Of a stretch of 64,000 nucleotides of DNA, positions 3,301-6,300 are shown piece after piece. The position numbers were made by a program, and so were the translations under genes. A model generated the notes under the pieces. It worked only from the letters and a program-made list of their open reading frames with translations. It was not told where the DNA came from and did no database searches. Source of the stretch: Ascidiella aspersa (taxonomy: Eukaryota); the NCBI GenBank assembly GCA_963924565.1, contig OZ004608.1, positions 10,974,001 to 11,038,000 of the forward strand. The letters run 5' to 3'. Each line of letters begins with the position of its first letter. Position 1 is the first letter of the stretch.

Positions 3301-6300
3301 GTGTGCGCTTTGTTTCTGATTCTGTATTATACGCTTTGAAACCCGATGAAGAATTTAAGCGTGGGTTGTTTGACTTACTCTTACAGGTAGCTGTGAATGA
3401 CAACCGGGACGAGTTATGCGAAAACGCCTAAAACGTATCTTACTTTCACCGCACACATGAATAAACATGGCCGAGGAATGTAAACTGGCAAATTTCACTT
3501 TTTTTGAAAATTTATCATTTGAAAAAATGACTAGAATAGGACTAAAATCATTAAAACAATTAACCTTACATTTTGGGAAAAATAGGTAATGGACCATTTA
3601 ATGCTATTTCAGGTTTTAACTAGGCCTTAACTTGCTATAGCTTTCAAAACAACTTTACTAGCACTAACTTACAAACACATACACTCTAATCGAGTACCGT
3701 CTACCACAACACGTCGCTACAAAAACTTCCTACAAAAGGCTACTCACAAATGACAAAAAACGTAGCGCGAAATAGAGACTTACCCAGGCAGCGTAACGTC
3801 GGCGGCTCGCTGCTGCGTTGGGCTGATCGCCTCCTGCGAGGTCGTGCCGTCCTCTGCCATCCGAACCGCTCGCACCGCGTTCAAGTACTGCTTTCTTCCC
3901 ACCTATGCACGTGGAACAGCAAATGTTGGCCCAGAGTGAATGTACGTGGGACGGACTGGCGCTTTTTAATTTGGCAATGAATGTGAGCAATGCAGAGGTT
4001 TGCCAAAAGACTAAGTGTGTACACTGTTATAAAGGGTTGCCACACAGTTTTGTACAGAAAATAAGAGGCTTTTTCAATTAAAATTTATAGCATTTTGAAG
4101 ATCTAAAATTGGATTACTCAATGTTTTTTTTTAATTAATTTGAAATCAAAACAGTAATTACATGGTCAACAGAATAAAAAATAGGTGAAAGTTTCTAAAC
4201 GCACGTAATACATCATTTGAAGCCGCACATAAAATTAATTTAAAGACTAATCCAAGATTTTTGGAAAAACATAGGATTTTTAAATACCTTCTCTTATACA
4301 AATCAATTCAAAAACATTCAAAGACTTAGTGGCAACCCTGAGTGTAAGAATATTGCAAAATATGCCCCAGCTGTGGGGAGATCAAAGGGAAATCGAAAAG
4401 TCAGTTTTGCCTAAAAATTCACCCTGGCACATTAGAAAAAAAATTAAAGCTAAAAAAATGGAAAAACAAAATTAAATGGATCCAAAAGTAGTGAGTATTA
4501 TGAAGAAATCAACGACGCCTATTTAAACTAGTTTGATGGACTATTATACCCAACAGAAAGTTTTACTTTGAATCATATTATTATAGAAAAAATCTCACTA
4601 TTGTATAATAGTTTAACAAAGTTGGGGGGGGGGGAAGAAAACAGCATTGTTGTTTGCAACCTAATCCATTCCACTTACCTTGACGTATTTGACATCCGTC
4701 AGCGCAATGAGGGTGTAATCGGGGTGAAATATTTGGGGGTTGGTGGGGATTTCCGGGGCGCTAGTTTGGGATGTCGATTCAAGTTCGTGGCTGCTTTTCG
4801 TTCCACCTGAAATGATCATTAAATTGCTTGTTTTATGTAGCTTAATAATAAATTGCAAAGACAAAAAGGTCGAGTAGATCGACAGCATCTTGATTAAGAC
4901 GTTTCGATACGAGCTTGTATCATCTTCAGTTGATGTTCACTGACACATTAACTGAAGATTATACAAGCTCGTATGGAAACGTCCTAATCAAGATGCTGTC
5001 GATCTACTCGACCTTTTTGGCTTTGCAATTTATTATCAAATTGTGTTTTGTGTTTGGAGAAGGTCGATAATAATTTTACCAGTATACTTTCTAATCCACC
5101 GACCACATTTTTAAAAATTGAAAATCTCCTTTGAAAAAACAAAACGTTGGAAAAAAATATCAAACATAACAATTGGCCGAGTAAATAATTCGAAGTTATC
5201 GAGTAATTCCTAAAGGCATATTCAACGTATTTATTCAGCTGAATAGTGGCAAACCGTACAAAATATTGATTAGTTTTTTTTATAACAAGTTGCATATTTT
5301 TATTAACATCGACAGCGCGTTCGGTTCACATTTAACTTAACAAAAAATACTCAAGGTAATCGTCAGTCCAGATAAGACGAACACTCGAAAATCAGTTCGC
5401 CTCCTTTTTCCACCTGCAGCGGTGCCCTTGAAGCATGTCAAACTGGCCTAATTAAAGGCGGTCAATGGGAACATCGCTGCTTGTCGAGATCGATTAGTTT
5501 CTATTGCGCTAAACCACGGTGGGATTGGTTAAAAGGTCACGATGACGTTGGCCGCCGATAAGGCGGTTGAGTTAGACGAAAGGCAGGTTTCGATGACATG
5601 GCGATCGACAATAAATAGGGCGAACAACGTTGGCCACAGTTCAAGTTGTCGAATGATTTTGAATAGAATTCGATTACGCTGAATGCGTTGATCTTGGAAA
5701 GTTCGGCGGAAATGTAAAACGACAGAGCGAATGAGAAAGGCTGGTAAACGCGAAAAAGGTGTGGTCGCAGGATATAAACGGTCCATGTACTGAGCCACAC
5801 CAAAAAAAAATATGAACCAAAAAAATCTAGAAATAAACGAGCCATTGCGATCTCAAGTTTTTGCAATTGGTAAACAGCTCGAAATTAAACTTTAAATTGA
5901 AAGCAAAAAAGGTACGGTGGCAGCATACACGGTCTTTGCTTTGATTAAACGGTGCTTTCGCTGATGTCACACTAAATTAAGTCAAGGTCACCAATTGCGA
6001 AAACTTGAGATAACAATAGGGCGTTTATTGGGCTTGATTTTTTTGGCTGCTTAAAGATGTCATAGGGCAGAGGTGACCAACCATTTAGGAAGAGTCTTGT
6101 TTTATTAAGTAGCACATCCTATATTTTCAGAAATAAATATCACCCTGTTTCTTAATCAGACACACACACACCTTGGCTCAGCTAGATTTATTGTAGATGC
6201 TGCACACTAACAATACCAGGCTATAAATAACTCCTACTTTTGTTCACTAGGATATTTATAAAAATGCATTCAATCAGTCGAAGCCTCTATAAACCATCGA

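What the first reader, a model, noticed from the sequence alone, without database searches (positions are those of the whole stretch)
4846..5035. Family A palindrome places an intact GUC hammerhead ~90 nt upstream of a CNNM splice acceptor
Seen: on the CNNM sense (minus) strand the motif has a perfect core and 5-bp stem II, with predicted cleavage between 4898 and 4897; the exon starts at 4806 and the ~91-bp hairpin ends 40 nt from it. The consensus of the two arms gives a fully paired AUUAA/UUAAU stem I. Inference: the antisense arm is transcribed first and should sequester the ribozyme, and the long dsRNA could be an ADAR substrate or influence branch-point use.
Basis: partly seen in the sequence, partly recalled or inferred. 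Interest (0 to 1): 0.7.

Follow-up and report, generated by a model that had tools for sequence, protein, structure and literature searches.

The report
Head-to-head Penelope stump in CNNM intron
The mirror-image sequence beside this metal-transporter (CNNM) exon is one of hundreds of short two-armed insertions left by a common jumping gene (Penelope-like), and the ribozyme motif it carries is an incomplete type predicted to stay buried and inactive, so it is likely an ordinary passenger and not a splicing switch.

Summary
The palindrome (4835-5039), the hammerhead-like motif, the GUC site (4898/4897) and the CNNM exon at 4806 are real. The element is two 5'-truncated ends of a Penelope/Poseidon-type retrotransposon (PLE), joined head to head between an imperfect target-site duplication. 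The genome holds 435 exact copies of the 32-nt core. [quoted passage not shown] The motif is a known PLE minimal hammerhead (extra U after A9, no helix III loop); a tested example did not cleave as a monomer. Here stem I is also mispaired, and the hairpin opposes folding by about 58 kcal/mol. 'Antisense arm first' follows from the geometry on either strand. No RNA data were available, so editing and splicing effects are untested. Side result: none of the 54 inverted copies has the tail on both arms, and 41 of 98 arms stop within 13 nt upstream of the ribozyme, suggesting two-site priming near the mRNA 5' end. The scan found this kind of insertion before in two other genomes. Interest is low.

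The parts
4679..4806 (-). CNNM coding exon (C-terminal CNBH domain); acceptor AG at 4808-4807, donor after 4679
   Evidence: PF25562 positions 122-160; sequence; in frame with the upstream donor
4818..4823 (-). Nearest branch-point-like motif (UUUAAU), outside the hairpin
   Evidence: Sequence; role inferred from the general yUnAy consensus (own knowledge), untested
4821..4834 (.). Target-site duplication, acceptor-side copy (matches 5038-5049 apart from a 2-nt indel)
   Evidence: By eye from the flanks printed; the automatic scan gave 10 nt with 1 mismatch in another register. Family: 24 of 40 palindromes have >=10 nt, against 3.2% of 780 shuffled flank pairs
4835..4936 (-). Arm 1: 5'-truncated PLE end (reference -6 to +95 from the ribozyme core), sense on the CNNM strand; only about 3 nt of the 27-nt tail
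   Evidence: BLAST to long copy L047
4893..4934 (-). PLE minimal type I hammerhead motif: stem I 4934-4930/4897-4893 (one mismatch), core 4929-4923, extra U 4922, stem II 4921-4906, loopless ACGU helix III 4902-4899, predicted cut 4898/4897
   Evidence: architecture as in PMC4209133
4835..4888 (-). Likely first 18 codons of the PLE ORF (ATG at 4888-4886)
   Evidence: Translation. Arm plus tail resembles by eye the N-terminus of the 823-aa ORF of a sister family; no full-length copy of this family was found
4930..4951 (.). Apex between the two cores (22 nt), unique to this insertion
   Evidence: 43 of 45 short-apex palindromes have a unique apex
4945..5039 (+). Arm 2: inverted 5'-truncated PLE end (to +88), with a degenerate hammerhead at 4947-4988; read as antisense in the CNNM pre-mRNA
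5038..5049 (.). Target-site duplication, upstream copy
   Evidence: Flanks printed
6792..6936 (-). Upstream CNNM exon; donor at 6792/6791 (5' boundary inferred)
   Evidence: PF25562 positions 77-125

Best explanation
It is a head-to-head pair of 5'-truncated ends of a Penelope-like retrotransposon, one of hundreds in this genome, inserted 14-28 nt upstream of a CNNM acceptor, and its minimal hammerhead is predicted to be inactive here, so the insertion is likely a tolerated passenger. Shown: the family, the copy number, the RT and GIY-YIG-like frame in long copies, the two discrete 3' ends, target-site duplications across the family, and a unique apex in nearly every copy. Inferred: the element's endonuclease nicked this AT-rich site on both strands; reverse transcription gave two ~100-nt cDNAs that stopped just upstream of the ribozyme and were joined at a filler apex. 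Predicted: in the pre-mRNA the arms zip into a ~91-bp hairpin that hides the ribozyme and brings the old upstream flank back close to the acceptor. The intron would be spliced about as before, with at most incidental A-to-I editing of discarded intron RNA.
For: 435 exact matches to the 32-nt core genome-wide, 0 for the reversed control; 2644 first-look candidates for the whole element. L047 has an RT frame (YVDD) and a VVY...YIGQT frame ending about 100 nt upstream of the same motif and tail. Family copies L081 and L082 hit RVT_1 above cut-off. The EN part is 53% identical to a sister family with an 823-aa ORF in partial tandem and 48% identical to one with a weak GIY-YIG hit. Of 83 position-chosen loci, 54 are inverted and 29 single; 3' ends cluster at +85-97 and +114-118. 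TSDs in 24 of 40 palindromes against 3% of controls. The same architecture is described in PMC8557442, PMC3846280 and PMC11167929. A single minimal hammerhead showed no cleavage in vitro (PMC4209133). Folding: 58 kcal/mol against the ribozyme-shaped fold, 13.6 without the antisense arm.
Against: No full-length copy of this exact family was found, and its EN frame alone gets no Pfam GIY-YIG hit. This copy's TSD is imperfect, and it belongs to the rare class with no full tail (1 of 54 in the position-chosen set). No RNA data, so 'no effect on splicing' is inferred, not shown. The Anolis PLE hammerhead cleaved when the PLE protein was added (PMC11167929), so in vivo activity of this motif type is not zero in principle.
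Confidence: 0.9

Rival explanations
1. Same origin, but the hairpin has a real side effect on CNNM: it is edited by ADAR or changes the efficiency or branch-point choice of the 4806 acceptor, with no role for ribozyme catalysis.
For: A -147 kcal/mol hairpin ends 36-40 nt from the exon. The insertion separates any upstream branch point by about 215 nt of linear sequence. Adenosine-deaminase domains occur at three loci.
Against: The AG, its short pyrimidine run and the nearest UUUAAU lie outside the hairpin. No RNA evidence either way. Editing of an excised intron would have no coding consequence.
Confidence: 0.07
2. One reading: a host-co-opted switch in which the antisense arm gates a functional hammerhead that cuts the CNNM pre-mRNA before splicing.
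For: The 32-nt core has no substitution on the transcribed strand and lies 91 nt from the acceptor.
Against: An exact core is shared by 435 places. Helix III has no loop and stem I is mispaired. No second intact core lies on the minus strand in the 64-kb window (the other minus-strand match, at 38392, lacks the NUH context expected and is within chance). P(stem II) is about 1e-14. A contig of sample X2 leaves the window's sequence at 4824, hinting that the insertion may not be fixed (inconclusive).
Confidence: 0.02
3. The palindrome is a non-autonomous hairpin element (MITE-like or retrozyme-like) that moves as a unit, not a fresh by-product of each PLE insertion.
For: L017 and L018 share an identical 29-nt apex at two sites with unrelated flanks. 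Many copies are about 200-250 nt.
Against: 43 of 45 apices are unique; arm lengths vary continuously up to more than 1 kb; TSDs vary in length; the tail sits on opposite sides in L017 and L018, which ectopic gene conversion explains more simply.
Confidence: 0.03

Closest known systems
Endonuclease-positive Penelope-like elements, Penelope/Poseidon clade, with inverted pLTR and optional tail (PMC3846280, PMC8557442, PMC11167929; passages or parts read)
   Same: RT plus C-terminal GIY-YIG-like frame in long copies; inverted 5'-truncated copy at the 5' end; ~27-nt tail at one end only; variable TSD; pLTR overlaps the likely ORF start; AT-rich target.
   Different: This copy is reduced to two ~100-nt ends and lacks a full tail; the tail is about 27 nt against 30-40 nt described; no full-length member of this exact family was found.
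Minimal type I hammerheads of metazoan PLEs (Cervera and De la Pena 2014, PMC4209133; parts 1-2 of 4 read)
   Same: Extra nucleotide between A9 and G10.1, short helix I, G10.1-C11.1 pair, palindromic 15.2-16.2 with no loop 3; dual motifs on opposite strands 100-700 bp apart were already noted there.
   Different: Stem II is 5 bp (7-8 bp in the Schistosoma families); stem I has a C-A mismatch in this copy.
Intronic self-cleaving ribozymes that affect splicing, such as the CPEB3 HDV-like ribozyme (PMC10919898; search listing and start of abstract only)
   Same: A ribozyme motif in an intron upstream of an exon.
   Different: That one is an active ribozyme; its conservation and monomeric action are recalled, not checked here. 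This motif is one of hundreds of transposon copies, is predicted to need a dimer or protein, and is buried in a hairpin.
Non-LTR retrozymes (bioRxiv 10.64898/2026.07.22.740005; part 1 of 5 read)
   Same: Non-coding, type I hammerhead, PLE-derived.
   Different: Retrozymes are head-to-tail tandem units with at least two same-strand ribozymes; this is head to head with one per strand.

Membership tests
EN+ Penelope-like element (Penelope/Poseidon clade) | Reverse transcriptase ORF in long copies contiguous with this terminal sequence | tested here: met
   YVDD frame in L047; RVT_1 above cut-off in L081 and L082; nucleotide continuity with the arm
EN+ Penelope-like element (Penelope/Poseidon clade) | C-terminal GIY-YIG endonuclease | tested here: inconclusive
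   VVY...YIGQT.R...EH motif visible; 48% identical to the L091 region with a Pfam GIY-YIG hit of E 9e-4, below cut-off; no direct Pfam hit for this family
EN+ Penelope-like element (Penelope/Poseidon clade) | Inverted 5'-truncated copy at the 5' end | tested here: met
   54 of 83 position-chosen loci; this locus
EN+ Penelope-like element (Penelope/Poseidon clade) | Optional tail of about 30 nt at one end only | tested here: met
   46 of 54 tail + short, 6 tail + other, 0 tail + tail, 2 without tail; this copy carries only about 3 nt of it
EN+ Penelope-like element (Penelope/Poseidon clade) | Target-site duplication of variable length | tested here: met
   24 of 40 palindromes >=10 nt against 3.2% of 780 controls; 12 of 14 nt by eye at this locus
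EN+ Penelope-like element (Penelope/Poseidon clade) | Clade placement by RT phylogeny | not tested
   No tree built; assigned from domain order and the absence, by eye, of a Cys linker motif between RT and EN (criterion from PMC8557442)
PLE minimal hammerhead (min-HHR) | CUGANGA and GAAA boxes, NUH site, extra nucleotide after A9, G10.1-C11.1, palindromic loopless helix III | tested here: met
   against PMC4209133
Canonical monomeric type I hammerhead | Helix III closed by a loop and a fully paired helix I | tested here: not met
   AC|GU without loop; C-A mismatch in stem I; P(stem I) 1e-8 to 1e-6 even without the antisense arm; no Rfam hit
Canonical monomeric type I hammerhead | Self-cleavage at the NUH site | not testable with these tools
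   No RNA run listed; needs an in vitro assay
Non-LTR retrozyme | Head-to-tail tandem units, each with a ribozyme on the same strand | tested here: not met
   Head-to-head, one motif per strand

The most novel reading that the evidence does not exclude
The copies of this family record how PLE inverted ends are made. The two strands of the nicked target each prime reverse transcription on element RNA, one at the tail end (+118) and one at the inner site (about +92). In about 40% of arms the template is the mRNA's own 5' end, which starts about 7 nt upstream of the hammerhead core (TATA-like box at -30, Inr-like TCACATT), so ~100-nt run-off cDNAs are joined head to head. This two-site twin-priming model explains 0 of 54 two-tailed inversions, the unique apices and the threefold excess of stops just upstream of the ribozyme. 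It would replace self-priming on an antisense template as the explanation of head-to-head pLTRs.
Probability: 0.3. Interest if true: 0.45.

Novelty: new member of a known kind. Interest (0 to 1): 0.13.

Why it matters
As a locus it matters little. It shows that a perfect-looking ribozyme inside a perfect-looking hairpin next to a splice site is what Penelope-like insertions routinely leave behind, which is a useful filter for the scan. The family statistics (tail never on both arms; arms stopping just upstream of the ribozyme) bear on an open question, how PLEs make inverted ends, and fit the two start sites and two-strand priming reported in vitro for the Anolis element.

Tried and rejected
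Rfam scan: nothing at gathering score. RNA evidence: no RNA holder listed; this is no evidence either way. Presence/absence polymorphism: run X1 has contigs entering the element at both junctions. In X2 a 225-nt contig matches 4625-4824 and then has 26 letters that do not fit, not shown, and no X2 contig was listed over 5020-5150. This is inconclusive; an empty site is not proven. ADAR footprint in genomic copies: no A>G excess (57 A>G against 71 T>C; its 95 pairs include a few spurious low-score pairings). Cap signature: G before the modal 5' stop in 32 of the first 100 of 149 matches, against 26 of 92 at a control position (my count): not supported. Arms from independent templates: arms agree far more than random pairs at 7 of 9 polymorphic columns; one column is at random level and one has only 4 pairs. 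One template or co-expressed like templates fit; undecided. Palindrome moving as a unit: 43 of 45 apices unique. Full-length copy of this family: not found with a sister N-terminus query. Solved-structure search gave only weak group II intron RT hits, E >= 0.02. The paper on PLE hammerheads cleaving as dimers (Lunse, Weinberg and Breaker) was not held; I know it only through the review PMC6765202. No supplements were read; they may hold tail or 5'-end statistics like those in the novel case.

Full report
Observation. The window holds an inverted repeat with 95-nt arms at 4842-4936 and 4945-5039, 94% complementary, folding to a single hairpin of -146.8 kcal/mol (z = -20.4). The host gene is CNNM: three successive exons match PF25562 in order, and the donor at 6792/6791 joins the acceptor at 4807/4806 in frame. 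'Intact' is not: helix III would be AC|GU with no loop, stem I on the transcribed strand has a C-A mismatch, and the plus-strand copy has substitutions at G10.1, C11.1 and the first stem I position. Rfam finds nothing.

What it is. A DNA search of the own genome returned 2644 first-look candidates, of which 40 were scored, all near-full palindromes. The exact 32-nt core occurs 435 times, against 0 for the reversed control. Of the first 100 listed places I fetched 88 for a position-chosen set. The other 12 were mostly held already or second arms, and two were not fetched. I dropped 3 second arms of the same insertion and 2 segmental duplicates, leaving 83 loci. Of these, 54 are head-to-head inversions and 29 single pieces. 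The 3' ends fall in two clusters about 27 nt apart. Among the 54, 46 have the long end (tail) on one arm and the short end on the other, 6 have a tail plus a degraded end, 2 have no tail, and none has two tails. Direct repeats of at least 10 nt flank 24 of 40 palindromes, against 3.2% of 780 shuffled flank pairs. At this locus the duplication is 4821-4834 / 5038-5049, 12 of 14 nt by eye.

Long copies. They continue upstream into coding sequence. L047 has a YVDD frame and a VVY...YIGQT frame that ends about 100 nt before the ribozyme. L081 and L082 hit RVT_1 above cut-off. The endonuclease part is 53% identical to a sister family with an 823-aa ORF in partial tandem and 48% identical to a family with a sub-threshold GIY-YIG hit; it gets no Pfam hit itself. 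Arm plus tail translate to a peptide resembling, by eye, the sister ORF's N-terminus. This is the described anatomy of endonuclease-bearing Penelope-like elements: inverted 5'-truncated copy, tail at one end, TSD, pLTR overlapping the first codons (PMC8557442 and PMC3846280, passages; PMC11167929, parts 1-2 of 4). I did not find a full-length copy of this exact family and built no tree.

The ribozyme. It matches the PLE minimal hammerhead of PMC4209133 (parts 1-2 of 4): nucleotide between 9 and 10.1, short helix I, palindromic 15.2-16.2. That paper also noted pairs on opposite strands 100-700 bp apart, found no cleavage for a single motif and low cleavage for dimers. The review PMC6765202 (passages) says the same. 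The Anolis motif cut only with the element's protein, and no RNA-seq reads began or ended at its site. Here, ViennaRNA gives P(stem II) of 1.7e-14 in the full RNA and 58 kcal/mol against a fold with stems I and II. The five co-transcriptional prefixes tested are also locked. Removing the antisense arm still leaves 13.6 kcal/mol, and helix III has no loop; the intermolecular ACGU helix is worth only -3.1 kcal/mol. Stem I is fully paired in 38 of 87 exact-core copies and has this copy's variant in 6, so this copy is not among the best. That the antisense arm comes first is geometry: in a head-to-head pair it does so on both strands.

Effect on CNNM. Untested: no RNA run was listed. The AG and the nearest UUUAAU (4823-4818) lie outside the hairpin, and hairpin formation would bring the old upstream flank back near the acceptor, so I infer little effect. 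Editing is plausible (deaminase domains at three loci) but would fall in discarded intron. Genomic copies show no A>G excess. Run X1 has contigs entering the element at both junctions. An X2 contig leaves the window's sequence at 4824, at the duplication, which hints at an empty or different allele but does not prove it.

How the palindromes arise (inference). Apices are unique in 43 of 45 short palindromes, so each inversion forms at insertion. Of 98 arms, 41 stop within 13 nt upstream of the core, 0.030 per nt against about 0.01 further upstream. The mode sits at an Inr-like TCACATT 30 nt below a TATA-like box. With two in vitro start sites and extension of both target strands, two-site twin priming with run-off at the mRNA 5' end accounts for these numbers. 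Against it: no cap-G excess (32 of 100 against 26 of 92), a stall at stem I or a splice junction would explain the stops as well, and PMC3846280 argues for self-priming on an antisense template. I did not see this model in five searches (one search listed 20 of 36 papers). They were not exhaustive, and unread supplements or subscription papers may hold it.

Comparison and verdict. It works like, and is very likely a member of, the Penelope/Poseidon PLEs (GIY-YIG hit inconclusive, clade not tested by tree). The motif is a min-HHR and fails the test for a canonical monomeric hammerhead and for a tandem retrozyme. Two earlier notes of this scan report the same kind of insertion beside exons in other genomes (not checked here, and my reading was set before the look-up). 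Verdict: new member of a known kind; passenger 0.9, side effect on splicing or editing 0.07, ribozyme switch 0.02; interest 0.13.

Noticed in passing
window 49919-50035: Second family copy: a single arm, sense on the plus strand, with stuttered repeats of the ribozyme's 5' start and a substitution in the GAAAC box. It lies about 60 nt upstream of an acceptor at 49859/49858 (minus strand). The exon reads like the last exon of a PKA catalytic subunit (recalled; Pfam gave no hit). Both copies in the window sit near a 3' splice site.
   Followed up: partly
window 4661-4936 (minus): The likely PLE start codon at 4888 is in frame, without a stop, with the CNNM exon at 4806. Contigs of X1 and X2 lack one base at 4810, which would break that frame, so it is probably chance.
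   Followed up: partly
L017 (G000:C1:30436269) and L018 (G000:C1:33239055): Two palindromes 2.8 Mb apart share an identical 29-nt apex but have unrelated flanks, different TSDs and the tail on opposite sides: ectopic gene conversion or a rare secondary move.
   Followed up: partly
L047:1460-1500 and other long copies: TATA-like box about 30 nt upstream of an Inr-like TCACATT whose A is the commonest 5' stop of truncated arms: 149 of 669 exact matches lose the templated base there. The same stretch also reads as a 3' splice site; in Drosophila virilis Penelope an intron ends at helix I.
   Followed up: partly
L090, L091, L092: Sister PLE families with open frames of 816-880 aa in partial or full tandem arrays; L090 and L092 have their own minimal hammerhead with a GUU site, and that family also leaves many stumps ending at codon 26-29.
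   Followed up: partly
window 5832-6029: A second inverted repeat in the same intron (40-nt arms, 85%, 118-nt spacer), possibly a small DNA-transposon remnant.
   Followed up: no
window 50258-50448: Two 76-nt direct repeats that each contain a near copy of the acceptor region at 49870-49852, so decoy acceptors may lie upstream in that intron.
   Followed up: no
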